This document shows, piece by piece, positions 2,000 to 13,569 of a stretch of DNA of 64,000 bases. Position numbers and translations under genes: made by a program. This DNA is from a virus, in IMG/VR virus record IMGVR_UViG_3300050120_000115, positions 1 through 64,000 of that record; one strand, written 5' to 3'. The first letter of the stretch is position 1. Every line of letters begins with the position of its first letter. Under the pieces are notes generated by a model, which saw nothing but the letters and a program-made list of their open reading frames with translations, did not search any database and was not told the origin of the DNA.

Positions 2000-2196
2000 G
2001 CGTCCACGTACACTTCTGTTTCTTGTTGAAACCTAAACTCTTCCACTTTGCATCTTCCTTCTACTAGGTCCTCATGATCCCATGGGATGTTATTATTGAT
2101 CTTTAGTTCACGAATTATCTTATTCAATTTCAATATCTTTCCCTCTAGCCGCAAAATGTTTGGAGCTTCAGGACTTGAATATGTTGGTATTCTCAT
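1996..2196 (-). CDS. hypothetical protein
   Basis: translationally coupled between rtcB and the next gene. Confidence 0.6.
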   Translation of the reverse strand: MRIPTYSSPEAPNILRLEGKILKLNKIIRELKINNNIPWDHEDLVEGRCKVEEFRFQQETEVYVDA

Positions 2197-4301
2197 TATT
2201 TGACTCCTTTATAATTTAGGATTTGATGGAGACGATGATCGATGCGGGTTAGTTCCTTCTGGTTCTCCATAACTTCGTCAATAGATTTGTAGGCTAGCGG
2301 AGATTCATCGAGCAGTTGCTCAGCGTCTCTGTCATTCCACGACTTTCCTGCCATGGCCTCATTAAGTCCTTCAACTGTTAGGGTCTTCTTTGCGGCCCCC
2401 CGAGACAAACGACGACCAGCCCCGTGAGAAGACGAGTTGAATGACTGCGGGTTGCCAAGTCCGGTAGTGATGAAGGAGGCCGCTCCCATACTTCCCGGAA
2501 TAACTCCCCGGTCGCCCTTGTCGGCTTTGATTGCCCCCTTGCGTGTTACCCATAATCTCTTCCCATCGTAAGTCTCTTGCGCTGTGAAGTTATGGTGGCA
2601 GTTGATCTTCTCCTCTGCCTTAACGCCCTCGCCGTCGAAACCATTTTTATTCATGAAGTTTTGTACGGCCTCGAATGCGCCGTTCATCATAACCTCACGG
2701 TTCTGTAGAGCCCATGACTGAGCCCATAGAAGGTCAGCAATATAGGCGTTGAAGTCCTTATTCCCCTCCAAGAAGTATGCAAGATCGGGGTCAGGTAGCC
2801 TCTCACCCATCTCTTGCATAAGGGTCTTGGCGATTTTGATATGGTACGTCGCCAGTTGATTTCCAATTCCCCGAGAGCCAGAATGGAGAACTAGCCATAC
2901 ACGATCTAATTCGTCTAAGCATACCTCCACAAAGTGGTTACCAGCACCTAGGGTTCCCATCTGGTCGGTAATCGTGTTGATCTGTTTTCCAGTAAGCTTC
3001 GTAGATCCGTTATATGACGGAACCTTTTTGGTATGGCGCATACGATCCCAGTCAGAGGCGAACTCGTGTCCTTGGCCAACGCCGGAAGGAACAGCCTTAC
3101 GAATCAGGCCATGTAACTCTCCAAGGTCGTCAGGTAGATCGTTAGAGGTAAGATTTAGACGCATAGCGATCATCCCGCAGTTGTGTACGAACACTCCAGC
3201 AGCCAGTGCAAAGTTACCGAACTCTGGAACGTTCAGACAATATACGTCTTCAGTATTAGAAGTAATCTCTACAGAGATTACTTTGTGGTTAGACATCGCA
3301 TGTTCACGCTGCTTATGCCAACGATGGGAAGCAAGGTTTTTGCTTTCTTCTCCACAGTCATCGCAAACTTTAGTGCTTACGTTTGCTTTGGCCAAAAACG
3401 GCGCTCCTCGCTCTCCGTTACCGGCTACAGAAGCTATCCACTCTTCGTGATGTTCTTCCATATAACGAGTAATGTTTTCAGTTCCAACACGAGCACGCTT
3501 CCCCTTTATTATGGGGTTAGCGTTAGAAACCCTCATGCCTTCAAGACGCTTTTCCTGAAATAGCAGATCACTATTATCAAACTTCTTTCCCACAGATCGG
3601 TGGTAAGCAGAATGAGCGGCAGCTGTCATTGAAGTAAGGTTTTCGATACGGTTATCGAAGTGGCAGTGGTTTAGGTGATGCACAACATCACCTTTCTGTG
3701 CAGGGCCATTGAATTGTTCCCATATACGAACATGGGTCATCTTACCATCGCCAGTTCCGGTGTGAGCACTCTCATAGCCATCACGGGTTGACCACTTGCG
3801 ATATAGGGGCATTAGACTATCATTGAACTTTAGGTCTTTAGCTTCTCTGTACGTACCGTCTCTTAGCATAAACTGGTGATCAGGAGTGCAGACGATCTCT
3901 TCTCCACCAGAAATTATTACACGCATTAACCCCGCGTTTTGTCGTGTCAGGTGTGCCGTAGCAAGACCTGCAACAATTTCATGGTTTTCATCAAGAGAAT
4001 AAACCCAAAAAGGGTCACGCCCTACAAGGTTTTTTAAGGTCTCTTGTCTGCCGTCAAGGAGTGGCACTTTTGTATCACCAACAAAACAGCCGATATCCAC
4101 ACCTACCGCATAAGGAATTATTGCCCCATCTGTTGCAATTACGGAACCAACTGGTACACCGTATCCCTGGTGACCGTCAGCCATAACCGCTACTGGCTTA
4201 GCGACGAACGGAAGCTTGGCTACATTAGTAGCCTGCTGTACGGCACCGGCCTCCAAATTAGGGTCCCAGCTCAGTACATCTGGTGTTAATAGTTCTGGCA
4301 T
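2196..4301 (-). CDS. rtcB: RtcB RNA ligase containing an intein
   Basis: MADGHQGYGVPVGSV, VGVDIG|CG, GTLGAGNHFVE, LHSGSRG, CHHN, RKGA, PGSMG, SHGAGR, DESPLAYK motifs. Confidence 0.95.
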   Translation of the reverse strand: MPELLTPDVLSWDPNLEAGAVQQATNVAKLPFVAKPVAVMADGHQGYGVPVGSVIATDGAIIPYAVGVDIGCFVGDTKVPLLDGRQETLKNLVGRDPFWVYSLDENHEIVAGLATAHLTRQNAGLMRVIISGGEEIVCTPDHQFMLRDGTYREAKDLKFNDSLMPLYRKWSTRDGYESAHTGTGDGKMTHVRIWEQFNGPAQKGDVVHHLNHCHFDNRIENLTSMTAAAHSAYHRSVGKKFDNSDLLFQEKRLEGMRVSNANPIIKGKRARVGTENITRYMEEHHEEWIASVAGNGERGAPFLAKANVSTKVCDDCGEESKNLASHRWHKQREHAMSNHKVISVEITSNTEDVYCLNVPEFGNFALAAGVFVHNCGMIAMRLNLTSNDLPDDLGELHGLIRKAVPSGVGQGHEFASDWDRMRHTKKVPSYNGSTKLTGKQINTITDQMGTLGAGNHFVEVCLDELDRVWLVLHSGSRGIGNQLATYHIKIAKTLMQEMGERLPDPDLAYFLEGNKDFNAYIADLLWAQSWALQNREVMMNGAFEAVQNFMNKNGFDGEGVKAEEKINCHHNFTAQETYDGKRLWVTRKGAIKADKGDRGVIPGSMGAASFITTGLGNPQSFNSSSHGAGRRLSRGAAKKTLTVEGLNEAMAGKSWNDRDAEQLLDESPLAYKSIDEVMENQKELTRIDHRLHQILNYKGVK
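3180..4088 (-). mobile_element. intein (303 aa) with HNH homing endonuclease and a C2H2-like finger
   Basis: starts CFVGDTKV, block B CTPDHQF, ends VFVHN before extein Cys; internal HVRIWE...VVHHLNHCHFDNRIENL; CDDC...HRWHKQREH. Confidence 0.93.
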
Positions 4302-4303
4302 TG

Positions 4304-4456
4304 TTAGTAGTTCCTTGCTCCGATGTCCATAAATAAGTATCCAACTAAGTAAGATCCTATCATGAATACGTAACGCCATGTTGGTATATGTGTTAAGAAT
4401 AGTTCGGTTCCAAATACCATAGACATACCTGCTGGGATTTTGTATCTAAGCTTCAT
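4304..4456 (-). CDS. small membrane protein
   Basis: 50 aa, two hydrophobic stretches, AAGGGG RBS. Confidence 0.55.
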   Translation of the reverse strand: MKLRYKIPAGMSMVFGTELFLTHIPTWRYVFMIGSYLVGYLFMDIGARNY

Positions 4457-4478: not shown

Positions 4479-5420
4479 TCATAGTTCAATCCCTGCGTGG
4501 CCAATGCACTCTAATGCCTGATTTTTCAAGTCCTCAGGTGAGCCTTCGTTTTGAATATTGTAGTCCTCAAATCCAAGTGATGCGGTCTCTGAGATGTGAT
4601 CATTTATAGGTCCATAGCCTTTACGATTTACACGGATTATTACTCCACCGCGCTCCTTAATGGACGAGCACTCATTTGGAAAACGGCAATCAGAAATAAC
4701 AAGTCGTGCATTGTTGGGTGAGTTGAGCAATGCATCTACCCATACATTATCTCCCAAAACACTGCGTCCAGCATCAGTACCTAAACGCTGTAAGAGCTGT
4801 CGTATCTCAGGAACTTCTTTCTTGGCTGTCTCCCAGCCATAGAAATCCACATAATCCCTGACTCTAACGACACCGTTGTTACCAAAATTGTCACCAACCT
4901 TTGCCCAGTTGGGCGCGGGGAGGATGGGATTCAGAGCATACAGCATAGAACGAAGATTATCTGCAAATCCCTTACGTTGAAAATTGAAATCACCAACAAG
5001 TAGATTAGCTAAAGTATCCTTACCAACTTGAGCGTATCCAGTCAGACCAATAAGAAGTTCCTTCTCTAAGTAAGAGTTGTCTGCGTCAACACGGTACATA
5101 TCTAGCTTAAGTTTTCCGGCGAATGCGCGCTCCAGTGCAGCACCTTTACTATGTTGCCAGCCGGGGATGAAGGCAATAGCAGAACACTCCGTCAATGCCC
5201 TATAGTCACGTACCATAGCAGCATGATAGTCTTCTGCCGTGAAATCCCTATTCTCCCACTCTGGGTCATTGGGATCATGTCCCGCTTGCCTATCTAAATC
5301 AGCAGGAGAAATAGCGTCCCATCCGTTGTCACGCAAGAACTGTGCATTACGGTCAAAGGCAGGGAAGTTAGATTTCTCATATCCGGTCATACCGCCTGCA
5401 ACATAGATTCTCTTGTTCAT
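4479..5420 (-). CDS. DUF4406 (nucleoside deoxyribosyltransferase-like) fused to deoxynucleoside monophosphate kinase
   Basis: N-term IYVAGGMTG..NFPAF...PGWQHSKGAALE; C-term IGLTGYAQVGKDT, RQLLQRLGTD, VISDCRFPNE, HISE. Confidence 0.85.
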   Translation of the reverse strand: MNKRIYVAGGMTGYEKSNFPAFDRNAQFLRDNGWDAISPADLDRQAGHDPNDPEWENRDFTAEDYHAAMVRDYRALTECSAIAFIPGWQHSKGAALERAFAGKLKLDMYRVDADNSYLEKELLIGLTGYAQVGKDTLANLLVGDFNFQRKGFADNLRSMLYALNPILPAPNWAKVGDNFGNNGVVRVRDYVDFYGWETAKKEVPEIRQLLQRLGTDAGRSVLGDNVWVDALLNSPNNARLVISDCRFPNECSSIKERGGVIIRVNRKGYGPINDHISETASLGFEDYNIQNEGSPEDLKNQALECIGHAGIEL

Positions 5421-6124
5421 CGTCCGTCTGCCCATTCCAGAGAAGATTTTAGGTCGAATAACTCGTCATAGGTCTCACGCCATTTATCACGCCACCAATT
5501 GGCGCGCTCTGTTTCCGCCTCTACGTCAGCATCAACATTTAGTGGTGGAGTCTTGATCTTAGGAGCCTTAATACCGTAGTGATTCAGGGTATCGAGATTA
5601 GCCTGGGCCACAGCCTTCCAGTAGGAGATTTCCTTCTTGCGACCCTTGGCCTGCTCTGTAAGCATATCGAGTTGCTTCCTCTGGTCCTTCACTCGGCGCT
5701 GAAGATTTTTACGCTCTACAGCTTTTGGCCCCTCTTGTGCAACTTCTTCAGCATGAAACTCCGAATAGTCAACATCCATTAAATTGTGGACGCCTGGGGA
5801 GACGGGATCTTTTGGTGCATATTGGTCATACCATCTTGTTCCATTCCCGTTTTCGGCGGGGGAAGACTGGGATTTATGAAACTCGCGCTCAGCGATGAAA
5901 CCACCCACCTCCTCTTTAAGAGCTTCCAACTCATCAACCGTCTCATTATGGATCTTCGCCATTGCGTCCCATTCCGCGATGGGGAAAATAACGGCAACAG
6001 AAGCACGAGTCGCAGGATCACACACGAGGACCGAAGGCCCACCATGATGCTCTATCGCACGCATAACTGCGTAGGCTGTATTACGATCCTCAAGTTGCTG
6101 GACCAAGGGATTTCTATCTGCCAT
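5417..6124 (-). CDS. hypothetical coiled-coil protein
   Basis: GGAGG RBS, own promoter, coupled to the next gene. Confidence 0.7.
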   Translation of the reverse strand: MADRNPLVQQLEDRNTAYAVMRAIEHHGGPSVLVCDPATRASVAVIFPIAEWDAMAKIHNETVDELEALKEEVGGFIAEREFHKSQSSPAENGNGTRWYDQYAPKDPVSPGVHNLMDVDYSEFHAEEVAQEGPKAVERKNLQRRVKDQRKQLDMLTEQAKGRKKEISYWKAVAQANLDTLNHYGIKAPKIKTPPLNVDADVEAETERANWWRDKWRETYDELFDLKSSLEWADGR

Positions 6125-6150
6125 TGTTTTCCTCCACTTAGAATAAGTAA

Positions 6151-6179
6151 AGGTTACCACAGAAAAGCTAATAAGTCAA
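6151..6179 (-). promoter_or_regulatory. promoter of the rtcB block
   Basis: TTGACT-N17-TAACCT with TGn. Confidence 0.65.
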
Positions 6180-6205
6180 TAGTGAATTTTGGTTTGGGAG
6201 AAGAA

Positions 6206-6322
6206 TGGCCCCACGGGAAGGATTTGAACCTTCTAACTATAGACTAACTCAGTAATCCACTCCGTCCTAGTATGAAGTGGTCCGTTATTCTAGCCATCAC
6301 GCATCACCGAACTACGCGTGGG
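6206..6322 (-). ncRNA. 117-nt tRNA-like RNA with enlarged D-loop and insert at the anticodon position
   Basis: CCCACG/CGTGGG-G-CCA acceptor end, perfect T-arm GAAGG-TTCAAAT-CCTTC; 37-nt region in place of a 7-nt anticodon loop. Confidence 0.6.
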
Positions 6323-6324
6323 AA

Positions 6325-6398
6325 TGGTCCGGGCGGCAGGGAATGATCCTACGGGGGCAAATTTATAAGATTTGCTTGAATGACCAATTCACACCCGG
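6325..6398 (-). tRNA. tRNA-Ile(UAU), atypical D arm and T loop
   Basis: CCGGGTG/CGCCCGG-A-CCA; CAAAT-CT TAT AA-ATTTG. Confidence 0.7.
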
Positions 6399-6400
6399 TC

Positions 6401-6475
6401 TGGTAGGGAATGCAGGAATCGGACCCGCACCTGGTAGGTAGAAACTACTAGCTCTATCCATTAAGCTAATTCCCC
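6401..6475 (-). tRNA. tRNA-Arg(UCU)
   Basis: cloverleaf, loop TT TCT AC, CCA encoded. Confidence 0.85.
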
Positions 6476-6479
6476 AAGT

Positions 6480-6648
6480 TGGTTACTTTCCGGGTAACCA
6501 CTCCTCTGAGACTGTGAGTACCACCCACCTTCATCTCAGCACTCCTGATTTCCCGCCATGAATATTCTTCTGGTTAGGAAGACTCCTCTAGCTCTTTAGC
6601 GTCTAGCACTCTGCCCTCACACGGCACCGGTACGTCATTTGTGTTCGA
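6480..6648 (-). ncRNA. candidate structured RNA with AGGAGU repeated every 41 nt
   Basis: directly downstream of a consensus promoter; hairpins separated by (G/C)AGGAGT. Confidence 0.4.
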
Positions 6649-6653
6649 TATCA

Positions 6654-6682
6654 AGTGTAGCATATTTTGCGACAGTTGTCAA
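6654..6682 (-). promoter_or_regulatory. promoter for the left tRNA sub-cluster
   Basis: TTGACA-N17-TACACT with TGn. Confidence 0.8.
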
Positions 6683-6689
6683 GTAATAC

Positions 6690-6718
6690 TTGCAATTTTT
6701 AAAAAGATATGCTATACT
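6690..6718 (+). promoter_or_regulatory. divergent promoter
   Basis: TTGCAA-N17-TATACT with TGn. Confidence 0.7.
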
Positions 6719-6768
6719 AATCATATCAGTATAGAGAATCGCTAATATTTATTGAGAAAGGTTGCATC

Positions 6769-6951
6769 ATGAACTTCCACAAAATTAGCTTCTATCGGAC
6801 GGTAGCGGCTATATGCTTTGCGATAATGGCTTTCCTCGTTGTTCCGCCGATTACACTTTTTTTCACCGTTACCTGGCCGTTCCTTTTGGCTATCGGGCTG
6901 TTCTTCTGGGTAATCGATGGAATCATTAGCAAGAAGCCGCCGACTCCGTAA
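6769..6951 (+). CDS. small two-TM membrane protein, inverted within the tRNA array
   Basis: 60 aa hydrophobic ORF, AAGGT RBS, own promoter. Confidence 0.7.
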   Translation: MNFHKISFYRTVAAICFAIMAFLVVPPITLFFTVTWPFLLAIGLFFWVIDGIISKKPPTP

Positions 6952-6955
6952 TTTG

Positions 6956-7028
6956 CTCCCCACCAAGGATTCGAACCTCAAACTGTTGATTCAGAGTCAA
7001 CTATGTTAGCCAGTTACACCAACGGGGA
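6956..7028 (-). tRNA. tRNA-Gln(CUG)
   Basis: GTTGA-CT CTG AA-TCAAC; TTCGAAT T-loop. Confidence 0.9.
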
Positions 7029-7040
7029 ATGTTTACTGCG

Positions 7041-7126
7041 CGGAAGATACAGGACTTGAACCTGTACGCCCTATGAAGGACGGATGGATTAGCAATCCAC
7101 TGCGCTACCAGTTACGCCAATCTTCC
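7041..7126 (-). tRNA. tRNA-Ser(GCU)
   Basis: GTGGA-TT GCT AA-TCCAT, long variable arm. Confidence 0.9.
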
Positions 7127-7131
7127 ATTTG

Positions 7132-7208
7132 CTTAGGGTCTAGGCTTCGAACCTAGAGTTATGTCCTATTTCAAAGATAGGCGAGTCTACCAATTCCTCC
7201 AACCCTAA
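7132..7208 (-). tRNA. tRNA-Gln(UUG)
   Basis: CCTAT-CT TTG AA-ATAGG; TTAGGGT/ACCCTAA acceptor. Confidence 0.8.
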
Positions 7209-7396
7209 ATGCTTACTTCTTTACAAAACCTTTCATACCACTCTGACAAACAATCGTTACAACCGTCCAGAACAGCCCCAGAGTAATTTACTAGAACCTC
7301 TTCACAAGACATTTTATCATTGTGAACAAAGCTCTGATCATCGAAATGATAATGAATCTCTTCGAGAGCCCTTTTGTAGCGTTCTTCATTTGTCAT
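7205..7396 (-). CDS. small Cys-containing hypothetical protein between tRNAs
   Basis: 63 aa ORF exactly filling an inter-tRNA gap. Confidence 0.55.
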   Translation of the reverse strand: MTNEERYKRALEEIHYHFDDQSFVHNDKMSCEEVLVNYSGAVLDGCNDCLSEWYERFCKEVSI

Positions 7397-7398
7397 AG

Positions 7399-7469
7399 TC
7401 CTGATCTAGAGAGTCGAACTCTAACTGAAGGTTTGAGCTTCAGTCCTCTACCAGTTGGGATACATCAGG
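7399..7469 (-). tRNA. tRNA with CAA (Leu) anticodon lacking the long variable arm
   Basis: CTGAAG-CT CAA AC-CTTCAG; TAGAG-TTCGACT-CTCTA. Confidence 0.6.
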
Positions 7470-8136
7470 GTGTTTTATTTAAGTGTCTTCTTATTGCATT
7501 ATCACTAACATTAAGATTTTTCGCAACTTGTGTATAATTACTTTCTGCTATCATTCTCAAAAGATCTTTTTTGCTAGGCCATTCTATCTTTGGTCTTCTT
7601 TCAACACATTTTTTGCAATGACCAGAGATACTATGATTGCTGATTCTTGCACTGCATTTAGAGCATTCTTTGAACTTCTTTGGTTTTTTATTTAACTTCC
7701 ACTGCTTCCTCGTTTTTAAGGAATGACAATTCGGACAGAGAATTTGTAGATTGCTTAAAGTGTTATTATCATGGTCGCCGTCGATATGATCTAAATCAAG
7801 TGGTAATTCCTCACCATCCCATTCTGACGTTTTGCACCGCTCACACTCGTATTTTTTGATCCCCTCTTTTACAAGTCTCAATTTCAGACTATGCGAATCT
7901 ATCTTGCAAAGGTTAAATAAATAATCTTCAATAGGTCTTTTGGGGCCTCTAATTTTTCCCTTAGTTGATCCTTGTCCTAAAAAGTGAGAAAAATCTATAC
8001 CAAAATCTATTGCCCTTCTTTTGATGTGAGCCTGCGATCCAGTCAAGGGTTTAATTCCAAAATGCCTACAAACATCTGACCATGTATAACACGATTCCAC
8101 AACTGGACTAAGATTTTCTTTGGTATACTTATTCAT
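7465..8136 (-). CDS. HNH homing endonuclease 1
   Basis: CERC...LDLDHIDGDHDNNTLSNLQILCPNCHS, Zn ribbon, C-terminal WPS...HTH. Confidence 0.9.
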   Translation of the reverse strand: MNKYTKENLSPVVESCYTWSDVCRHFGIKPLTGSQAHIKRRAIDFGIDFSHFLGQGSTKGKIRGPKRPIEDYLFNLCKIDSHSLKLRLVKEGIKKYECERCKTSEWDGEELPLDLDHIDGDHDNNTLSNLQILCPNCHSLKTRKQWKLNKKPKKFKECSKCSARISNHSISGHCKKCVERRPKIEWPSKKDLLRMIAESNYTQVAKNLNVSDNAIRRHLNKTP

Positions 8137-8142
8137 ATACCT

Positions 8143-8171
8143 ATTATACACTATTCCATTCGAATTGTCAA
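8143..8171 (-). promoter_or_regulatory. leaderless promoter of HNH1
   Basis: TTGACA-N17-TATAAT-N6-ATG. Confidence 0.85.
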
Positions 8172-8183
8172 GTGTTTGAATCG

Positions 8184-8254
8184 AGGCGCAACCCAGAGTC
8201 GAACTGGGATAAAGGGTTTTGCAGACCCCCGCGTGACCATTCTGCCATCGCGCC
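8184..8254 (-). tRNA. tRNA-Cys(GCA)
   Basis: GGGGT-CT GCA AA-ACCCT, U73. Confidence 0.92.
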
Positions 8255-8265
8255 ATAATACATCG

Positions 8266-8345
8266 TACAGGTAGAGGGACTCGGACCCTCACTCCAAAGA
8301 ACTAGTTTCTAAAACTAGCGCGTCTGCCAATTCCGCCACACCTGC
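8266..8345 (-). tRNA. tRNA-Leu(UAG)
   Basis: CTAGT-TT TAG AA-ACTAG, variable arm. Confidence 0.88.
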
Positions 8346-8387
8346 ATGTTTGCCCTCGGGGGTCCGAAAACCATAACCGAAGATACG

Positions 8388-8470
8388 TACAAGTGAAGAG
8401 GGTCGAACTCTTACTCCCTCGCGGGAACCGGGGCTTAAACCCGGCGCGGCTGCCATTTCGCCACACTTGC
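8388..8470 (-). tRNA. tRNA-Leu(UAA)
   Basis: CCGGG-TT TAA GC-CCCGG, variable arm. Confidence 0.88.
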
Positions 8471-8485
8471 AAGTCTTTACTACAG

Positions 8486-8566
8486 TTCGGAAGAGGAGAT
8501 TCGAACTCCTACGTCTTTCGACAAGAGATTTTAAGTCTCCCGTGGCTACCCTTACACCACTTCCGA
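8486..8566 (-). tRNA. tRNA-Leu(UAA), second unrelated copy
   Basis: GGAGA-CT TAA AA-TCTCT, variable arm. Confidence 0.88.
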
Positions 8567-8750
8567 ATGAGGTACTAAACGGTCTTTCGCATGTCACCGT
8601 TTCCTCCGGGAGGGCTGGCTAGACCTAAGGGAATTTCCTGTGATTGCCATTCACTCCCCCGATTTCCCCCGGTATGCAAAATTCTAATGCCTTCGTCGTA
8701 ACCTAAAGTTACGCCCTCTATAGCATTAACGTCTTACACCAAGTACTTCG

Positions 8751-8824
8751 TGGACCAGGAGGAATTCGAATCCTCAACCGTCTCTGTGCAAGAGAGCCGT
8801 TCTGCCAATTGGAACTACAGGCCC
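8751..8824 (-). tRNA. tRNA-Ala(UGC)
   Basis: loop CT TGC AC; G3.U70. Confidence 0.9.
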
Positions 8825-9029
8825 ATGTGGGAACTTTTAAGTCGTACCCAGGACTGGGGGAGCAGTCACCTAAATGAGTGCGTCCCTCCACCAGTGTGCT
8901 TTTTACTTCATCCCAAGAAGCGTTACCGATCATTCCGGGAAGGGGTTTCACCTACATCGAGGGTTAAAGGCCCCCGTTTTAAATGTCCTTTTACCCCGCG
9001 CGCGGAGGACGGCTCTTAAACTACCAGAG

Positions 9030-9102
9030 TGGAGCCGCCTGGATTTGAACCAGGATTCCTTAACGGGGAGCGACCCCGAGTGCATTTCCATTGCACGACC
9101 CC
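9030..9102 (-). tRNA. atypical tRNA-Ala(CGC)
   Basis: GGGGTCG/CGGCTCC-A with G3.U70; CCTGG-TTCAAAT-CCAGG; CGGG-GT CGC TC-CCCG. Confidence 0.55.
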
Positions 9103-9224
9103 AAGGCTCACTGTTGCTGATTCCGCTAAGAATCTTCGTGACTTCCGACTCGAACGGCCTAGGACTCCAATTACACGAAAACAGTGAGTGATCCGGTATG
9201 CAGTTGCAACTACATACTTTCTCG

Positions 9225-9296
9225 TGGAGAATGACGGTAACGATCCGTCTCCTGAGCCATGCCATGGCCCCATGCTTCCTTTATCACTAAATCCCC
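9225..9296 (-). tRNA. tRNA-Ala(GGC)
   Basis: GGGCC-AT GGC AT-GGCTC; G3.U70; T-loop ATCGTTA. Confidence 0.8.
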
Positions 9297-9384
9297 AAGA
9301 TACCACAGCTAGGAAACCCATTCCCTTGAGGGGCATAACCCCTGCATTTACTTCTCCCCGCGCGAGGAAAAGCTAACTGTGCAG

Positions 9385-9457
9385 TGGTCCCAGTCAGGAT
9401 CGAACTGACGCTCTTCCGGGCTTCAACCGGACGCTTAACCAACTAAGCTTCAGAACC
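9385..9457 (-). tRNA. tRNA-Phe(GAA)
   Basis: TCCGG-TT GAA GC-CCGGA. Confidence 0.9.
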
Positions 9458-9561
9458 AAGTGAAGCAATCGGCTGATGAGCACCGTAAAGATCCCGAATC
9501 TGCCAGTTGCCGCCTATCATCAAACCAGCGCATTATAAAGACAGAGAGATCACTCACTTCG

Positions 9562-9632
9562 TACATCCTGACGGTACCGCCCCGCCGCAGGCTGTGTGTA
9601 GGACAGCTGCACTACTATTATGCTAAGGATGC
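9562..9632 (-). tRNA. tRNA-Val(UAC), non-canonical T-loop and C33
   Basis: GCATCCT/AGGATGT; GCTGT-CC TAC AC-ACAGC; T-loop GGCGGTA. Confidence 0.7.
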
Positions 9633-9635
9633 TCG

Positions 9636-10640
9636 TTACTTCTTTATTCTTCTACGGTACCTGGCATGAACCTGACCACGAGATACATCAAGTTTTTTTC
9701 CAGTACCAGCAAATCCGAGTTCTTCAATCATTTTTGATAATTCTATATCTGTGGGCCAGTCTATCGTCTTAGGACCGAAATAGCAAGTTCCACAGAGTCC
9801 GGTTTTTGAGTCCTTTCTCACTATCTTGCCGCAACCAGAACACGTAGGTTTATCCTCCGGCCCAATCCTAGGGCGAGGAGGAGCGGAACTGGCGACCAAC
9901 CCCTCTACCCTAGACTTTAGGTATTTGCGAATTGCATTATCAGTAACGCCCAACTCATCTGCTACACCAGTATATGTTCCCCTCGAAAGCCTTTCCACTA
10001 GTTCTTCGACTGAAGGCCACACTATCTTCGGCTTGGCCATTTGCGTAGCTATGCAATTCCTGCACAACCCAAGTGGGGTTCCCGAGTTAATCTTTCTTCC
10101 ACACTTAGAACAATTGGTTTTTTCATGAATAATTTCACCAAATAGTCCTCTTTTTACTGTAGTCTTTATGTTCTTTTTTGCTGCGTATGTGTCTGTCTGT
10201 GAATGACAATTGGGGCAAAGAAATCGAAGATTCTCGATTCTGTTATCGGTCCCGACTCCATTGATGTGATCCACCTGCAGAACCAATAAACGCTTTTTCC
10301 ATACCGGAGGCAAAGAGCACTTAAAGCATTTATGCTCCACTCCTGACTCTATCAGCGCTCGTCTAATAGAATATACAGATGTCCGACGTGACCCTTCAGG
10401 AAGAAGAACAAGAATTTCTGTGGGAATTTTCTTTCTGCTATCCGATTTATTTCCGTAACGCGGAACCCCCTTCTGAAAGTGATTAATATCAATCCCAGCT
10501 TTGGAAATTCTTTGAGACCAGTGTCGATGACTCGACCCACTGATACTTTTCCCCAACCTACGTATGACATCCGATACATTCGTAGCGTCCTTAACAACGA
10601 CACAAAGTTCTTCATCTGATACTGTTCTTGCTCTAGCCAT
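9636..10640 (-). CDS. HNH homing endonuclease 2 (duplicated Zn-ribbon/HTH tail)
   Basis: CFKC...LQVDHINGVGTDNRIENLRFLCPNCHSQT; two CxxC..CxxC + WP(S/T) modules. Confidence 0.9.
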   Translation of the reverse strand: MARARTVSDEELCVVVKDATNVSDVIRRLGKSISGSSHRHWSQRISKAGIDINHFQKGVPRYGNKSDSRKKIPTEILVLLPEGSRRTSVYSIRRALIESGVEHKCFKCSLPPVWKKRLLVLQVDHINGVGTDNRIENLRFLCPNCHSQTDTYAAKKNIKTTVKRGLFGEIIHEKTNCSKCGRKINSGTPLGLCRNCIATQMAKPKIVWPSVEELVERLSRGTYTGVADELGVTDNAIRKYLKSRVEGLVASSAPPRPRIGPEDKPTCSGCGKIVRKDSKTGLCGTCYFGPKTIDWPTDIELSKMIEELGFAGTGKKLDVSRGQVHARYRRRIKK

Positions 10641-10646
10641 ACCTAC

Positions 10647-10674
10647 AGTATAGCACATTATATGGTAATGTCAA
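10647..10674 (-). promoter_or_regulatory. leaderless promoter of HNH2
   Basis: TTGACA-N16-TATACT-N6-ATG with TGn. Confidence 0.8.
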
Positions 10675-10701
10675 GTCTTTGCCAGTTCGAATCGAACTGA
10701 G

Positions 10702-10776
10702 TGCATCCTGAGAGAATCGAACTCCCGCCTCCGACCTTCGTAGGGTCGCGCACTTTTTCCGCTATGCTAAGAATGC
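10702..10776 (-). tRNA. tRNA-Arg(ACG)
   Basis: CGACC-CT ACG AA-GGTCG. Confidence 0.9.
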
Positions 10777-10934
10777 ATGTGGGCCTTTTAGAGACATGCC
10801 CAGGTACAACCATTATATGGGGTACTTAAACCTTACCACTCCGCCGAAGAGGAGGAGGATAAGGATGATTCATGGGGTGCATAGGAGTAATGAATTCCCA
10901 AGCGCGTTACGGTCATTACTCCGTAACCCCCTCG

Positions 10935-11006
10935 TAGTGGCGAAAGGTAACGATCCTTCTTCTCAGCGTTATCAGCGCCGCGTCTTAACCTCTGGACTAC
11001 ACCACA
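10935..11006 (-). tRNA. tRNA-Ile(GAU)
   Basis: CGGCG-CT GAT AA-CGCTG; T-loop ATCGTTA. Confidence 0.82.
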
Positions 11007-11069
11007 TCGTTTTTCTGCCGCCCCCGCGCGGAAATCGTTCGGATTCATATCTCCGCGCGGAGGACTAGG

Positions 11070-11142
11070 GGTGAGTGAGGAGAATCGAACTCCCGACAAC
11101 AGGGGCCACGACCCTGCGTTCTGCCACTGAACTACATCCACC
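11070..11142 (-). tRNA. tRNA-His(GUG)
   Basis: G-1:C73; CAGGG-TC GTG GC-CCCTG. Confidence 0.88.
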
Positions 11143-11192
11143 ATGTACTCGTCTTTCCGAGCCGTCATTTTTCTTAGAACCGGTACGTATTT

Positions 11193-11221
11193 AGTATAGC
11201 ACACATTCATTAAACTGTCAA
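11193..11221 (-). promoter_or_regulatory. internal tRNA-array promoter
   Basis: TTGACA-N17-TATACT with TGn. Confidence 0.8.
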
Positions 11222-11260
11222 GTCTTTTTTCGCTGGGGGGCAAAAAACGGACCCATGAGG

Positions 11261-11333
11261 CACGGGAGAAGGGAATCGAACCCCTACAACGCTGGTTTTG
11301 GAGACCAACTGGCAGCCAATAAGCCACTCCCAT
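11261..11333 (-). tRNA. tRNA-Trp(CCA)
   Basis: TTGGT-CT CCA AA-ACCAG; G73. Confidence 0.82.
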
Positions 11334-11400
11334 AAAGTCCCGTCTCTCCAGGATGCCACGTTTCTTGGGTCGATCAACTCCCAGGGAAAAACGTCCCTCG

Positions 11401-11472
11401 TTGACTCGCCGGGGGTCGAACCCGAATATCTTAGCTTAAGAGGCTAGCCCATATCCGCTCTGGCACAAGTCA
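11401..11472 (-). tRNA. tRNA-Lys(CUU)
   Basis: CTAGC-CT CTT AA-GCTAA. Confidence 0.82.
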
Positions 11473-11484
11473 TAGTTTACTTCT

Positions 11485-11571
11485 TGGTGGGAAAGGAGGG
11501 ATTTGAACCCCCATCGTATCTTACGTCACACGTTTACAGCGTGCTTGCTTCAGCCGTTTGCATACTCGCCC
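11485..11571 (-). tRNA. tRNA-Tyr(GUA)
   Basis: GCACG-CT GTA AA-CGTGT, variable arm, CCA encoded. Confidence 0.9.
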
Positions 11572-11583
11572 ATTATTACTACG

Positions 11584-11658
11584 CTCCAGTTAGTGGGATC
11601 GAACCACTCTTTATCACGGTTAACAGCCGCGCACATTCGCCCTGATTGTTAAACTGGA
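11584..11658 (-). tRNA. tRNA-Asn(GUU)
   Basis: CGCGG-CT GTT AA-CCGTG; G73. Confidence 0.88.
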
Positions 11659-11664
11659 ATGATT

Positions 11665-12375
11665 TTACTTCTTTACTTCTGGTCCTCTCTTGCGTGGTAC
11701 CCAAACTCCATGTTTTTTTAAGTGTTTTTTCACAGAGTTTCCATTAACTCCTAAACTTTTACCAAGAGCATACACACTCGTTGATTCAAGACTTTCAAGA
11801 AGTTGTTCAATAGAAGGCCATTCTATACTGGTGGGCCTATTAGAACATCCACGACATCTAAGTGTTTTAGAGCCTCTAGTTACTTTAGACCCGCATTTTT
11901 CACACTCCCATTTTTTCTTATTTCTAAAAGTGTCTGTTTGAGAGTGACAATTAGGACAAAGAAAACGAAGATTCTCTATTCTATTATCATTTTTCTCTCC
12001 ATTTATATGATCAATTTCAAGAACTAGTTCTCTTCCATTCCAAGAATTGCCAACCTTACAGTTCATACCAGCACACTTATGTAAAACTCCTACAGAAAAC
12101 ATTGCCTTACGTAGCCTCAAGGTTGAAACTCTTAAATTTTCTTTCGGATGTATCTTTAAAACTTCTGGTAACAACATACTGGGTTTACTTTTTAGATTAT
12201 TTTTCGTGTCAACTCGAACAAAATGACTTGTATCTATCCCTGCAGACCTAGCCCTTGCAGCATAAGAATTGTACATATTACCATGTGGTATTCTTCCAAG
12301 TTTCTTTAGTGTTTCCCCCATAGAAGTAGATGTTAAAACTGCCTCTTTTAGTTCGTTATCTGTTACTCTTTTCAT
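11665..12375 (-). CDS. HNH homing endonuclease 3
   Basis: LEIDHINGEKNDNRIENLRFLCPNCHSQT, Zn ribbon, WPS-HTH; leaderless start. Confidence 0.9.
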   Translation of the reverse strand: MKRVTDNELKEAVLTSTSMGETLKKLGRIPHGNMYNSYAARARSAGIDTSHFVRVDTKNNLKSKPSMLLPEVLKIHPKENLRVSTLRLRKAMFSVGVLHKCAGMNCKVGNSWNGRELVLEIDHINGEKNDNRIENLRFLCPNCHSQTDTFRNKKKWECEKCGSKVTRGSKTLRCRGCSNRPTSIEWPSIEQLLESLESTSVYALGKSLGVNGNSVKKHLKKHGVWVPRKRGPEVKK

Positions 12376-12420
12376 ACCTACACTATACACCCTCTGTCAA
12401 GGGTTTAAGGTGCAAAATAG

Positions 12421-12493
12421 TCCCCCCGGAGAGATTTGAACTCCCACCTTCTGGGTAAAAGCCAGTAACGCTACCAGGTTACGCCACAGAGGG
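12421..12493 (-). tRNA. tRNA-Lys(UUU)
   Basis: ACTGG-CT TTT AC-CCAGA. Confidence 0.85.
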
Positions 12494-12506
12494 TTAAAAT
12501 ACTGCG

Positions 12507-12578
12507 TCTGATTGGGAGGATTCGAACCTCCAGCCCCTCGGTCCCAAACCGAGTGCCATACCATTAGGCCACAACCAG
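12507..12578 (-). tRNA. tRNA-Pro(UGG)
   Basis: CTCGG-TT TGG GA-CCGAG. Confidence 0.9.
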
Positions 12579-12593
12579 TTGATACTACATATT

Positions 12594-12691
12594 TCGAACA
12601 CGGGGGGCGCTCTACCGTTGAGCTACACTAGCCCTCCGGTTTTTACACCATTGGCTAGAGGCTGGATTCGAACCAGCAACCTCCCCCCTCG
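12594..12691 (-). ncRNA. circularly permuted tRNA-like RNA (YrlA/Y-RNA-like or permuted tRNA gene)
   Basis: order GGGGGG-AGGTT-[GCTGG TTCGAAT CCAGC]-CTCTAGCC-19-nt linker-GGCTAGTG-TA-[GCTC AACGGTA GAGC]-G-CCCCCC. Confidence 0.8.
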
Positions 12692-12767
12692 CAGTCCTAA
12701 TGGGATTTGAACCCATGATCTCTACCTTGACGGGGTAGCGCTTTGAACCAAACTAAGCTACAGAACC
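12692..12767 (-). tRNA. tRNA-Asp(GUC)
   Basis: CTACC-CC GTC AA-GGTAG; G73. Confidence 0.88.
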
Positions 12768-12789
12768 ATGCTTTACTTCTTACTACTAG

Positions 12790-12875
12790 AGGAAGCGGTA
12801 GGATTCGAACCCACGGTGGCTCAGCACCACATCAATTTTCAAGATTGCAGCCTTAATCCGCTCGGCCACGCTTCC
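12790..12875 (-). tRNA. tRNA-Ser(UGA)
   Basis: CAAT-CT TGA AA-ATTG, variable arm. Confidence 0.9.
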
Positions 12876-12934
12876 ATGTTGAAGGACCCACGTTGCGTCC
12901 ACTGCCCCCTGTGATCTGGGGATAAAGCCCTTCG

Positions 12935-13006
12935 TACTGTTAAAGGGAATTGAACCCTTCTTACAAGGTTGAGAACCTTGCGTCTTGACCACTAGACGAT
13001 AACAGC
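12935..13006 (-). tRNA. tRNA-Glu(CUC)
   Basis: CAAGG-TT CTC AA-CCTTG. Confidence 0.9.
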
Positions 13007-13092
13007 AAGTACCCTGGGACGCTACCCCCATCCTCCGTATCTCGATCCTTGCGTCCAAGGGTACTTAATACGGCGTGCGCTTACACCACTAG

Positions 13093-13165
13093 CAGTCTGA
13101 CGGAGACTCGAACTCCGGCTACAAGGGTGAAAACCTTGCGTCCTAGGCCACTAGACGACCAGACC
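13093..13165 (-). tRNA. tRNA-Glu(UUC)
   Basis: CAAGG-TT TTC AC-CCTTG. Confidence 0.9.
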
Positions 13166-13236
13166 ATGTGAAGTAATAAGATGGGTTCACTCATCACCCG
13201 TGCCCCACCGAGACCGTGGGTGTACCTATTACTTCG

Positions 13237-13309
13237 AGCCTTAGACAGGATTCGAACCTGCGAGCCTCCTAGTTGGCAACCAGGCGTTCTTCCGCTGAAC
13301 TACTAAGAC
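13237..13309 (-). tRNA. tRNA-Gly(GCC)
   Basis: CCTGG-TT GCC AA-CTAGG; U73. Confidence 0.88.
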
Positions 13310-13320
13310 TTGTTACTTCG

Positions 13321-13391
13321 TCGGGCAAGAGGGAATCGAACCCTCGACACCTACTTGGAAGGAAGGTGTTATACCACTTAACTACAACCCG
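13321..13391 (-). tRNA. tRNA-Gly(UCC)
   Basis: loop CT TCC AA; GAGGG-TTCGATT-CCCTC. Confidence 0.82.
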
Positions 13392-13497
13392 ATAATTTAC
13401 TACGATTACAGTATAGCATAACTTCTGCTACTTTGTGTTACAACTGCATTACAATCTTACTTCGCGGGAAATGGCTCCTAGAACCCGCTTCCCCCCG

Positions 13498-13569
13498 TGC
13501 CAATTGAGAGAATCGAACTCCCGACCCCTCCCATACCAAGGGAGTATTCCACCACTGAACTAAAAAGGC
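13498..13569 (-). tRNA. tRNA-Thr(GGU)
   Basis: CTCCC-TT GGT AT-GGGAG. Confidence 0.88.

What the first reader, a model, noticed from the sequence alone, without database searches (positions are those of the whole stretch)
6206..6322. 117-nt CCA-ending tRNA-like RNA with a ~30-nt hairpin insert at the anticodon position
Seen: the acceptor end (CCCACG/CGTGGG-G-CCA) and T arm are intact and the D stem GTTC/GAAT has an 18-nt loop. Between a weak anticodon stem (ACGGA/TCTAT) lies a 37-nt segment containing a 7-bp hairpin CCACTTC/GGAGTGG. Removing 30 nt after position 33 would give loop CC-GUU-AG, and G73 fits Asn identity. It is the last RNA of the array, adjacent to the promoter of the rtcB block. 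Inference: a protein-spliced (RtcB-ligated) intron-containing tRNA, which is not the normal bacterial route, or a long-armed tRNA mimic, or a decaying pseudo-tRNA.
Basis: partly seen in the sequence, partly recalled or inferred. Interest (0 to 1): 0.7.

Follow-up and report, generated by a model that had tools for sequence, protein, structure and literature searches.

The report
Orphan oversized tRNA-like phage RNA
The last unit of this uncultured phage's tRNA gene array keeps a perfect tRNA upper half and CCA tail but has no usable anticodon arm, so it is most likely a non-decoding tRNA look-alike of the kind long known (function unknown) from phages T4 and T5, not a spliced tRNA.

Summary
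The upper half is real. It has a 6-bp acceptor stem, a canonical T arm, G73 and an encoded CCA, and it starts 2 nt after the CCA of tRNA-Ile(UAU). A strict pattern for this combination hits only here in the window and never in 50 shuffles.

The lower half is not a tRNA:
- ARAGORN at default settings does not call it, and the Rfam tRNA model matches only the T arm (13.1 bits).
- Low-threshold intron models contradict each other.
- I found no bulge-helix-bulge motif and no splicing endonuclease gene.

The predicted fold is acceptor, D-like hairpin, 7-bp hairpin, small hairpin, T arm. T5 RNA1 and RNA2 fold with the same architecture, and T4 rnaC likewise pairs inserted hairpins with a T arm.

The element is absent from the two syntenic relatives. 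An identical copy occurs in one other sequencing run, so no covariation test is possible.

Verdict: a strain-specific, non-decoding tRNA-like RNA, probably matured by tRNA-processing enzymes. This makes it a new member of a known but unexplained kind. The RtcB-spliced-intron reading is not supported. Earlier notes of this scan describe comparable RNAs in other phages.

The parts
6206..6322 (-). Whole 117-nt tRNA-like unit, from 5' C at 6322 to 3' CCA at 6206-6208.
   Evidence: Sequence read. It is the only match to the strict upper-half pattern in the window. ARAGORN at default settings and Rfam do not call it as a tRNA.
6316..6322 (-). Acceptor 5' strand CCCACGC (element positions 1-7).
   Evidence: Positions 1-6 pair with 108-113, and position 7 faces C107 as a mismatch. 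Pair probability is 0.61-0.67.
6287..6312 (-). D-like hairpin (element 11-36): stem GUUC/GAAU with an 18-nt loop. The loop holds GUGAUG twice at an offset of 7.
   Evidence: Pair probability 0.57-0.59. The direct repeat CATCAC x2 on the plus strand is shown.
6257..6280 (-). Perfect 7-bp hairpin CCACUUC/GGAGUGG with the 10-nt loop AUACUAGGAC (element 43-66), sitting where an anticodon arm would be.
   Evidence: Pair probability 0.91-0.95. It is unique in the window at up to 3 mismatches. A 22-mer of it (excluding the outermost base pair) has no exact copy in viral contigs or genome contigs.
6236..6253 (-). Small variable-arm-like hairpin (element 70-87).
Evidence: It is part of the minimum-free-energy fold with pair probability 0.44-0.53.
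6217..6233 (-). Canonical T arm GAAGG-UUCAAAU-CCUUC (element 90-106).
   Evidence: The Rfam tRNA model matches positions 47-63 at 13.1 bits. Pair probability is 0.92-0.95.
6206..6216 (-). Acceptor 3' strand CCGUGGG, discriminator G, and encoded CCA.
   Evidence: CCA is encoded in only 4 of the 33 units examined.
6323..6475 (-). The 2-nt spacer, tRNA-Ile(UAU) at 6325-6398 and tRNA-Arg(UCU) at 6401-6475. These are the two upstream units of the same small transcription unit, and both also encode CCA.
   Evidence: ARAGORN, sequence and the CCA count.
6654..6682 (-). Promoter-like site TTGACA-17-TACACT (with TG) that would drive the leader, Arg, Ile and the element. No terminator-like site lies between it and the next gene.
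   Evidence: 10 of 12 consensus matches, and 0 terminator-like sites in 5900-7100.
6151..6179 (-). Promoter-like TTGACT-17-TAACCT downstream of the element, ahead of the 235-aa gene at 5417-6124. The -10 and SD region is conserved in L002.
   Evidence: Sequence and the alignment with L002. It is below the scan's threshold, so it is inferred only.

Best explanation
The element is a tRNA-derived gene for a non-decoding tRNA-like RNA. It is not an intron-containing tRNA.

Proposed mechanism (inferred):
- It is transcribed from the promoter at 6654-6682 together with a roughly 170-nt leader, tRNA-Arg(UCU) and tRNA-Ile(UAU).
- RNase P cuts at its first C, 2 nt after the CCA of Ile.
- The 3' end is trimmed to, or kept at, the encoded CCA.
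- The intact acceptor/T-arm upper half serves as the processing and stabilising handle.

Shown by prediction: in place of an anticodon arm it carries a 7-bp hairpin with a 10-nt loop and a small second hairpin. It also has a D-like hairpin with an oversized loop. It therefore cannot present an anticodon at the right distance.

The element is a recent, strain-specific addition to the array. It belongs to the same architectural kind as the stable tRNA-like RNAs of T5 (RNA1, RNA2) and T4 (rnaC). Its job is unknown. I favour a tRNA mimic that occupies some tRNA-binding factor over a pure relic, but the data cannot separate the two.
For: - The upper half is canonical and in register with the array.
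- It is not a tRNA by ARAGORN at default settings, or at thresholds down to ps75 without the intron option.
- It is not a tRNA by Rfam. Nothing matched in 6100-7000 at E<=10, and only the T arm matched in 6196-6332.
- The minimum-free-energy fold (-33.8 kcal/mol) is acceptor, D-like hairpin, 7-bp hairpin, small hairpin, T arm.
- T5 RNA1 and RNA2 are annotated 'tRNA-like stable RNA with unknown functions'. They fold with the same order of helices.
- T4 rnaD and rnaC are the last RNAs of the T4 tRNA cluster; rnaD starts 1 nt after tRNA-Arg. T4 rnaC also combines large inserted hairpins with a T arm.
- The element is missing from both syntenic relatives. In L002, Ile(UAU) is followed directly by the promoter and gene. 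In L023, Ile(UAU) is followed by a terminator-like hairpin and T run.
- A 9-nt near-repeat GG(A/G)CCAUUC flanks the unit at a spacing of 119.
- The phage encodes RtcB and a PolyA_pol-family (CCA-adding-type) enzyme, so it invests in tRNA-end maintenance.
Against: - I found no expression data; no RNA run is listed among the holders.
- There is no homologue anywhere, so neither covariation nor conservation supports any fold or any function.
- Overall fold stability is not better than shuffles (z = -0.72).
- Two close internal direct repeats occur, against 0.16 expected (P about 0.011). With the absence from relatives, this fits a young, drifting sequence as well as a functional one.
- Similarity to the T4 and T5 RNAs is architectural only. 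A blastn search of the 'phages' collection (E<=10) found 6 records, none of them T4 or T5, and only short matches in the 3' third of the element, 19-32 nt, mostly over the T arm.
Confidence: 0.55

Rival explanations
1. It is a decaying pseudo-tRNA. A former tRNA gene was disrupted by an insertion in the anticodon region and by slippage duplications. It is still co-transcribed but has no function, and the intact upper half only reflects youth.
For: - It is absent from both syntenic relatives.
- Two close direct 6-mer repeats occur inside it.
- Fold stability is not above shuffles.
- The array already covers all 20 amino acids once the Rfam-detected tRNA-Val(UAC) at 9562-9632 is counted, so nothing is missing that it would need to supply.
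Against: - The damage is very uneven. No recognisable anticodon arm is left, and no parent tRNA can be identified among the 94 tRNAs compared. Yet the T arm, T loop, six acceptor pairs and CCA are flawless.
- An identical copy occurs in a second run from a different study (X2). This is weak evidence and may be the same strain.
Confidence: 0.27
2. It is an intron-containing tRNA, cut by an endonuclease and re-ligated by the phage RtcB. The product would be a working tRNA, for example Asn(GUU) after removal of 30 nt.
For: - RtcB lies about 1.8 kb downstream on the same strand.
- Removing 30 nt gives a 7-nt loop CC-GUU-AG (sequence), and C33 occurs in at least tRNA-Val of this phage.
- The element's 3' part from GUU onward is 75% identical over 32 nt to tRNA-Asn(GUU) of relative L003, at E = 0.18.
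- Oversized phage tRNAs with predicted 'enigmatic introns' have been reported in Lak phages (PMC6784885, passages read).
Against: - No bulge-helix-bulge motif and no PF01974 endonuclease.
- The insert of 30-44 nt is far too short for a group I intron, and Rfam gives no intron hit.
- The required anticodon stem has probability 0.0.
- Of 1353 single in-silico deletions, only 6 gave a default-threshold tRNA. All 6 were 44-nt deletions using a different stem, with anticodons UUA, AUA or AGA.
- ARAGORN with introns gives three incompatible models.
- A normal tRNA-Asn(GUU) is present.
Confidence: 0.05
3. It is an unspliced decoding or suppressor tRNA of unusual shape. The hairpin would be an extended anticodon arm, or the molecule a Sec/allo-tRNA-like class II tRNA.
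For: - The minimum-free-energy fold resembles a class II tRNA with a variable-arm-like hairpin.
- The 10-nt loop contains CUA and UAG triplets.
- G73 and CCA are present.
Against: - A 7-bp stem with a 10-nt loop and a 6-nt linker after the D-like hairpin does not fit ribosomal geometry (established tRNA knowledge).
- No 7-nt loop with position 33 and a purine at 37 on a 5-bp stem can be drawn.
- Neither the Rfam tRNA model nor any other Rfam family gave a whole-element match at E <= 10.
- Genes read normally in table 11, for example the 727-aa RtcB.
Confidence: 0.04
4. It is a processing punctuation mark or 3' cap. The tRNA-like upper half exists only to direct RNase P and 3' trimming. This would separate the tRNA precursor from the downstream mRNA in a unit without a terminator, and the RNA itself would be a by-product.
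For: - No terminator-like site lies between the tRNA promoter and the next gene.
- The element is the last unit of the array.
- From established knowledge, only the upper half is needed for RNase P.
Against: - L002 has the same layout without the element.
- The preceding tRNA-Ile could serve the same purpose.
Confidence: 0.09

Closest known systems
Phage T5 RNA1 (144 nt) and RNA2 (125 nt), annotated in NC_005859 as 'tRNA-like stable RNA with unknown functions'
   Same: They lie inside a phage tRNA gene cluster that also holds HNH endonuclease genes. In the predicted folds the two ends form an acceptor-like stem. This is followed by a D-like hairpin, a long inserted arm, a small hairpin and a canonical T arm, the same helix order as the minimum-free-energy fold here. 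Sizes are similar.
   Different: There is no sequence similarity; the blastn search of 'phages' gave no T5 hit. The T5 RNAs are described in the record as stable RNAs, whereas nothing is known about expression here. This element encodes CCA, and T5 RNA1 and RNA2 as annotated do not end in CCA. The host group differs: tRNA similarities here point to actinobacterial phages.
Phage T4 rnaC (species 1, 139 nt) and rnaD (species 2, 119 nt)
   Same: They are the last two RNAs of the T4 tRNA cluster. rnaD starts 1 nt after tRNA-Arg, which matches the in-register, end-of-array position here. rnaC ends with a canonical T arm plus an acceptor-like 3' strand and has large inserted hairpins. Their function is still unannotated ('small, stable RNA').
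   Different: There is no sequence similarity. rnaD has no recognisable T arm. rnaC folds far better than shuffles (z = -4.57), while this element does not (z = -0.72).
Oversized tRNAs with predicted 'enigmatic introns' in Lak megaphages (Devoto et al. 2019, PMC6784885; passages read; Supplementary Table 6 not seen)
   Same: They are phage tRNA-cluster genes too long for a bacterial tRNA model. They become tRNA-like only if an internal segment is removed in silico. Splicing has not been demonstrated.
   Different: The Lak inserts are reported as highly conserved between genomes and sit in tRNAs with an assignable anticodon. Here there is no conservation and no consistent anticodon.
YrlA-type bacterial and phage Y RNAs (Rfam RF02553)
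   Same: They are tRNA mimics with T arm, D arm and acceptor-like stem, often found near RtcB or Ro60 genes (recalled). A YrlA-like RNA is present elsewhere in this same array.
   Different: The topology is opposite: YrlA ends lie at the 'anticodon' side and the acceptor is closed by a loop. RF02553 does not match this element. TROVE/Ro60 was not found in this genome.

Membership tests
Canonical tRNA (Rfam RF00005 / ARAGORN) | Full cloverleaf scoring at or above the family threshold (29 bits), or an ARAGORN call at default settings. | tested here: not met
   There was no hit in the gathering scan or in 6100-7000 at E<=10. Only model positions 47-63 (the T arm) matched, at 13.1 bits, when 137 nt were scanned alone. 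ARAGORN made no call at default settings or down to ps75 without introns.
Canonical tRNA (Rfam RF00005 / ARAGORN) | Acceptor stem, T arm with a T-loop consensus, a discriminator, and a 3' CCA either encoded or able to be added. | tested here: met
   Six acceptor pairs, GAAGG-UUCAAAU-CCUUC, and G + CCA.
Canonical tRNA (Rfam RF00005 / ARAGORN) | A 5-bp anticodon stem with a 7-nt loop. | tested here: not met
   The 37 nt lie between the only candidate stem strands. That stem has pair probability 0.0.
Protein-spliced (archaeal/eukaryal type) intron-containing tRNA | A bulge-helix-bulge motif at the exon-intron junctions. | tested here: not met
   No motifs were found at three helix-length settings. 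Shuffles gave a mean of 0.23-1.31.
Protein-spliced (archaeal/eukaryal type) intron-containing tRNA | A splicing endonuclease is available. | tested here: not met
   PF01974 did not match in the 88,953-b genome, while the controls rang. The host is unknown. That bacteria lack this enzyme is established knowledge and was not tested here.
Protein-spliced (archaeal/eukaryal type) intron-containing tRNA | An RNA ligase of the RtcB type is available. | tested here: met
   RtcB (PF01139, E = 2.8e-107) with an intein at 2196-4379 on the minus strand.
Protein-spliced (archaeal/eukaryal type) intron-containing tRNA | A spliced RNA is observed. | not testable with these tools
   No RNA run is listed among the holders.
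Group I intron in a bacterial or phage tRNA gene | An insert of roughly 200 nt or more with a group I core. | tested here: not met
   The insert is 30-44 nt under any model. There is no Rfam intron hit.
Phage tRNA-like stable RNAs (T5 RNA1/RNA2, T4 rnaC/rnaD) | Encoded within a phage tRNA gene cluster, in register with the tRNAs. | tested here: met
   It starts 2 nt after the CCA of tRNA-Ile(UAU) and is the last unit of the array. T4 and T5 show the same placement.
Phage tRNA-like stable RNAs (T5 RNA1/RNA2, T4 rnaC/rnaD) | tRNA-like ends (acceptor plus T arm) with extra folded RNA instead of an anticodon arm. | tested here: met
   Fold of the element compared with folds of T5 RNA1, T5 RNA2 and T4 rnaC. 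These are predicted structures only.
Phage tRNA-like stable RNAs (T5 RNA1/RNA2, T4 rnaC/rnaD) | Accumulates as a stable small RNA during infection. | not testable with these tools
   The phage is uncultured and no RNA run is listed.
Phage tRNA-like stable RNAs (T5 RNA1/RNA2, T4 rnaC/rnaD) | Sequence homology to the T4 or T5 RNAs. | tested here: not met
   The blastn search of 50,697 phage records at E<=10 returned 6 records, none of them T4 or T5. The matches were only 19-32 nt, in the 3' third of the element and mostly over the T arm. The kind is defined by architecture, not homology.
YrlA / Y RNA (RF02553) | A covariance-model match, permuted topology, and a Ro60 partner. | tested here: not met
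   RF02553 does not hit the element (the own-genome search found only 12589-12701). TROVE and the L024 Ro60 protein are absent from the genome.
tmRNA | A tRNA-like domain plus a tag reading frame. | tested here: not met
   ARAGORN found no tmRNA at default settings. Only a nonsensical call appeared at ps70. Rfam gave no tmRNA hit on the element.

The most novel reading that the evidence does not exclude
The RNA is a purpose-built tRNA decoy. Its flawless acceptor/T-arm half with a ready-made G73-CCA end, on a body that cannot decode, would soak up a host factor that attacks or marks tRNAs. Candidates are an acceptor-end-modifying or anticodon-independent tRNA toxin of an abortive-infection system. 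It would work alongside the phage's RtcB and CCA-adding-type enzyme and the YrlA-like RNA as a layered tRNA-protection kit. A rarer alternative is that it really is cut and re-ligated by RtcB in a bacterial cell.
Probability: 0.12. Interest if true: 0.75.

Novelty: new member of a known kind. Interest (0 to 1): 0.35.

Why it matters
tRNA-like stable RNAs in phage tRNA clusters have been known from T4 and T5 for decades without any assigned function. This would be an example from an uncultured peat/soil phage whose tRNAs resemble those of actinobacterial phages. It sits beside RtcB, a CCA-adding-type enzyme and a Y-RNA-like gene. That setting suggests such RNAs belong to the contest over tRNA integrity between phage and host.

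The value here is limited. The element is an orphan with no homologues, so nothing about its fold or function can be tested by comparison.

It also serves as a caution. An RtcB gene next to an oversized tRNA-like gene is not evidence for bacterial protein-dependent tRNA splicing.

Tried and rejected
**Is it the missing tRNA-Val?** ARAGORN's 31 tRNAs lack Val. Rfam finds a tRNA-Val(UAC) at 9562-9632 on the minus strand at 40.3 bits, so this idea is rejected.

**Search for homologues.** None of these found a copy of the element:
- The neighbouring 235-aa protein (query translated from 5417-6127, 236 aa) in viral contigs gave 0 relatives.
- The DUF4406-DNMK protein gave 21 loci, of which only L002 and L003 are close. 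Neither carries the element.
- The 5.8-billion-protein search gave 5 proteins.
- An alignment-based scan of metagenome contigs gave 1 locus, L024, with a Ro60 gene upstream and no tRNAs.
- The same alignment in viral contigs found only L002's contig again.
- A leader-RNA pattern also found only L002's contig.
- Exact 3'-end 28-mer in viral contigs: 0.
- 22-mer 3' end in genome contigs: 0.
- Hairpin 22-mer in genome contigs and viral contigs: 0 and 0.
- A degenerate acceptor/T pattern gave 3 loci, all ordinary tRNA-Trp or tRNA-Asp.
- blastn against phages found only T-arm-sized matches.
- tblastn of the 235-aa protein against phages gave no match.

**Sequencing runs.** 16 runs were listed. No RNA holder is listed. 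I laid 4 of the 16 (X2, X3, X6, X7) on 6100-6500. X2 is identical over the whole stretch. X3, X6 and X7 leave the window's sequence at 6136 and continue unlike it. No variants were found, so no covariation test is possible.

**Parent tRNA.** I aligned halves and in-silico 'spliced' forms to 94 tRNAs of the window, L002, L003 and L023. There was no clear parent; the best matches were Gln(CUG) of the window and Asn(GUU) of L003, both weak.

**Antisense targets.** There were 6 perfect 11-mer complements in the window, which I estimate to be near the chance level, and none of 12 or 13 nt.

**attP remnant.** This is unlikely. The 5' acceptor strand is present, and no bacterial genome holds the 3' 22-mer.

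**Long CCA-ended units in other phages.** The pattern scan recovered T5 RNA2 and part of T4 rnaC as controls. It also found one 96-nt unit in L035. It found nothing comparable in Streptomyces phage Wofford.

**Literature searches.** Searches found no paper describing this element or an actinophage equivalent. I saw search listings only, apart from passages of PMC2330249 and PMC6784885. Supplementary tables are closed, and Lak Table S6 may bear on the intron comparison.
Full report
**Setting.** The window is the first 64 kb of an 88,953-b IMG/VR virus record. ARAGORN finds 31 tRNA genes on the minus strand between 6325 and 13890. Rfam confirms 26 of them at gathering score. The finding lies directly after the last called tRNA.

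Downstream on the same strand are a 235-aa gene of unknown function (5417-6124), a DUF4406-dNMP-kinase fusion, and an RtcB gene interrupted by an intein with an HNH domain. HNH endonuclease ORFs sit between tRNA genes. The few DNA similarities to cultured phages are single tRNA genes, mostly of Streptomyces, Mycobacterium and Curtobacterium phages.

**The observation.** On the minus strand, 6206-6322 reads as 117 nt.
- CCCACG pairs with CGUGGG. The seventh acceptor position is a C.C mismatch.
- G73 and CCA are encoded.
- The T arm is GAAGG-UUCAAAU-CCUUC.
- GUUC/GAAU encloses 18 nt.
- ACGGA/UCUAU could pair at 4 of 5 positions.
- The 37 nt between those strands contain a perfect 7-bp hairpin.

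The unit begins 2 nt after the CCA of tRNA-Ile(UAU), the same spacing as between tRNA-Arg(UCU) and tRNA-Ile(UAU).

A strict pattern for a tRNA upper half matched once in both strands of the window, at this element. The pattern was a perfect 5-bp T stem, TTCRANY loop, six acceptor pairs, NCCA, and total length 60-135. It matched never in 50 shuffles. The phage's real tRNAs fail this strict test because of variant T loops or missing CCA. Of the 33 units examined, only 4 encode CCA: Tyr, Arg(UCU), Ile(UAU) and the element. The upper half is therefore real and unusually canonical.

**The lower half is not a tRNA.**
- ARAGORN does not call the element at default settings. It does not call it at any threshold down to ps75 without the intron option.
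- Rfam reports nothing for it at E<=10 in a 901-nt scan. In a 137-nt scan it reports only the T arm, at 13.1 bits.
- With the intron option and lowered thresholds, ARAGORN gives incompatible answers. In context at ps80 it gives 'tRNA-Stop(UUA)' with a 44-nt intron. For the element alone at ps85 it gives 'tRNA-Pro(AGG)' with a 22-nt intron.
- I tried 1353 single in-silico deletions. Only 6 gave a default-threshold tRNA. Their anticodons were UUA, AUA or AGA, depending only on where the cut was placed.
The pair probabilities of both proposed anticodon stems are 0.0.
- The optimum has this helix order: acceptor (extended by three pairs, 7-9 with 38-40), a D-like hairpin (11-36), the 7-bp hairpin (43-66, probability 0.91-0.95), a small bulged hairpin (70-87), and the T arm.
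- The whole fold is not more stable than shuffles (z = -0.72). The thermodynamic argument therefore decides between models. It does not prove structure.

**The splicing idea.**
- A scan for bulge-helix-bulge motifs found none at three settings, while shuffles gave 0.23-1.31 on average.
- The tRNA splicing endonuclease family PF01974 is absent from the genome, although it rang in control genomes.
- The insert is far too short for a group I intron, and Rfam reports none.
- A normal tRNA-Asn(GUU) exists.
- The array covers all 20 amino acids once a tRNA-Val(UAC) missed by ARAGORN is counted. It lies at 9562-9632 on the minus strand and scores 40.3 bits.
- From established knowledge, RtcB seals 2',3'-cyclic-phosphate and 5'-OH ends. 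Its presence beside phage tRNA arrays is explained by repair of nuclease-cut tRNAs. The phage also encodes a PolyA_pol-family, CCA-adding-type enzyme at 79103-79495 of the record.
The element's 3' part from GUU onward is 75% identical over 32 nt to tRNA-Asn(GUU) of relative L003, at E = 0.18. No parent tRNA stands out overall among the 94 compared.

**Comparison with relatives.**
- Two IMG/VR contigs are close relatives. The neighbouring kinase fusion is 70% and 64% identical in them. Both carry the syntenic array.
- In L002 the array ends Arg(UCU)-Ile(UAU). The conserved -10/SD region and the homologous gene follow directly.
- The alignment of the window with L002 shows about 120 extra nucleotides in the window.
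- In the other relative (L023), Ile(UAU) is followed by a terminator-like hairpin and a T run.
- BLAST of the element against both records found nothing at E<=10.
- A metagenome contig (L024) has a Ro60 gene (TROVE plus vWA_Ro60) upstream of the 235-aa gene's homologue, and no tRNAs.
- Contigs of three further runs leave the window's sequence at 6136 with a shared 30-nt continuation that I read as resembling L024's promoter region (not aligned). One run from another study carries 6100-6500 identically.
- Exact and degenerate pattern scans and blastn found no other copy.
- Near-repeats GG(A/G)CCAUUC flank the unit at a spacing of 119.
- It contains two close direct 6-mer repeats, against 0.16 expected (P about 0.011).

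The element is therefore a recent, strain-specific addition. No covariation test is possible.

**Comparison with known RNAs.**
- In phage T4, the last two RNAs of the tRNA cluster are rnaD (119 nt, starting 1 nt after tRNA-Arg) and rnaC (139 nt). Both are annotated as small stable RNAs. rnaC combines large inserted hairpins with a canonical T arm and an acceptor-like end.
- In phage T5, RNA1 (144 nt) and RNA2 (125 nt) are annotated 'tRNA-like stable RNA with unknown functions'. They lie in a tRNA cluster that also holds HNH genes. Their predicted folds have the helix order acceptor, D-like hairpin, long inserted arm, small hairpin, T arm. This is the same order as the element's optimum fold.
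- There is no sequence similarity, so the resemblance is architectural.
- Lak megaphages were reported to carry oversized tRNAs with 'enigmatic introns' predicted with eukaryotic settings. Splicing was not shown (PMC6784885, passages read; its supplementary table was not seen).
- Earlier notes of this scan describe comparable anticodon-less, CCA-ended tRNA-like RNAs in other phages and named the T5 records and the Lak paper. I checked the T4 and T5 annotations and the Lak passages myself.

**Conclusion.** The best-supported reading is a non-decoding tRNA-like RNA. Its canonical upper half makes it a substrate for the tRNA-processing enzymes, and its lower half is unrelated folded RNA. It is a new, orphan member of the T4/T5 kind of phage tRNA-like stable RNAs.

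Shown:
- the sequence anatomy;
- failure of all tRNA models;
- absence of splicing signals;
- absence from relatives;
- architectural likeness to T5 RNA1/RNA2 and T4 rnaC.

Inferred:
- transcription from the promoter at 6654-6682, with no terminator-like site before the next gene;
- RNase P and 3' maturation;
- stability of the RNA;
- any function.

I cannot separate a working mimic from a young relic. The very uneven distribution of damage, with a flawless upper half and an unrecognisable lower half, tips me slightly towards a selected or recently swapped-in handle-plus-insert design.

Noticed in passing
window 12589-12701 (-): A circularly permuted tRNA-like RNA lies directly after tRNA-Asp. 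It matches Rfam YrlA (Y RNA-like) at 33.3 bits, E = 5e-6 for the 161-nt scan, which is below the gathering score of 69. It folds well (z = -2.49). Sub-threshold YrlA matches also occur in the two relatives. The control genomes rang below the cut-off in 9 of 14, so the score alone is weak.
   Followed up: partly
L024 3-851 (+); whole record G000: A relative's contig has a Ro60 orthologue (vWA_Ro60 E = 2e-35, TROVE E = 7.7e-9) immediately upstream of the homologue of the 235-aa gene. This phage and L002's phage have no TROVE match, although they keep the YrlA-like RNA.
   Followed up: partly
window 9562-9632 (-): A tRNA-Val(UAC) was missed by ARAGORN and by the whole-window Rfam scan but scores 40.3 bits when scanned locally. 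It has C at position 33 and the T loop GGCGGUA. It lies directly after the stop of an HNH endonuclease ORF (9636-10658), in the slot where L002 and L003 have a normal tRNA-Val.
   Followed up: partly
window 9225-9296 (-) and 9030-9102 (-): Two further tRNA-sized units, 72 and 73 nt, have paired acceptor ends and T arms (T loops ATCGTTA and TTCAAAT). ARAGORN did not call them, so the array holds more tRNAs than the 31 listed.
   Followed up: no
window 6476-6650 (-); L002 5070-5246 (+): A noncoding leader of about 170 nt lies between the TTGACA-17-TACACT promoter and tRNA-Arg(UCU). It shares conserved blocks with L002, for example CCGUGUGAGG.CAG and UAUUCAUGGCGG. Rfam gives no match. A two-block pattern found only L002's contig in IMG/VR.
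   Followed up: partly
window 6401-13890 (-): Only 4 of the 33 tRNA-type units encode CCA: Tyr, Arg(UCU), Ile(UAU) and the element. Most others have the discriminator followed by C and then a non-CA dinucleotide. The phage has a PolyA_pol-family (CCA-adding-type) gene at 79103-79495 of the record, outside the window.
   Followed up: partly
L023 3051-3118 (-): In relative G002, a 68-nt CCA-ended tRNA-like unit not called by ARAGORN sits between tRNA-Arg(UCU) and tRNA-Ile(UAU). It has a CUCAUAU loop (CAU anticodon-like) and a reduced D region.
   Followed up: no
window 6136: Contigs from three runs of three studies match the window up to 6136, in the SD region just upstream of the ATG of the 235-aa gene, and then continue with a different upstream sequence that I read as the L024 (Ro60) arrangement (not aligned). 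This looks like a recombination junction between modules.
   Followed up: no
L035 8893-8988 (+): A 96-nt tRNA-like unit (7-bp acceptor, canonical T arm, followed by CCA), not called by ARAGORN, lies just before tRNA-Asp in a 204-kb IMG/VR phage contig. The identical stretch is in L036.
   Followed up: no
window 2196-4379 (-): RtcB is interrupted by an intein that carries an HNH_3 domain (Intein_splicing E = 6.6e-22, HNH_3 E = 3.4e-10).
   Followed up: no
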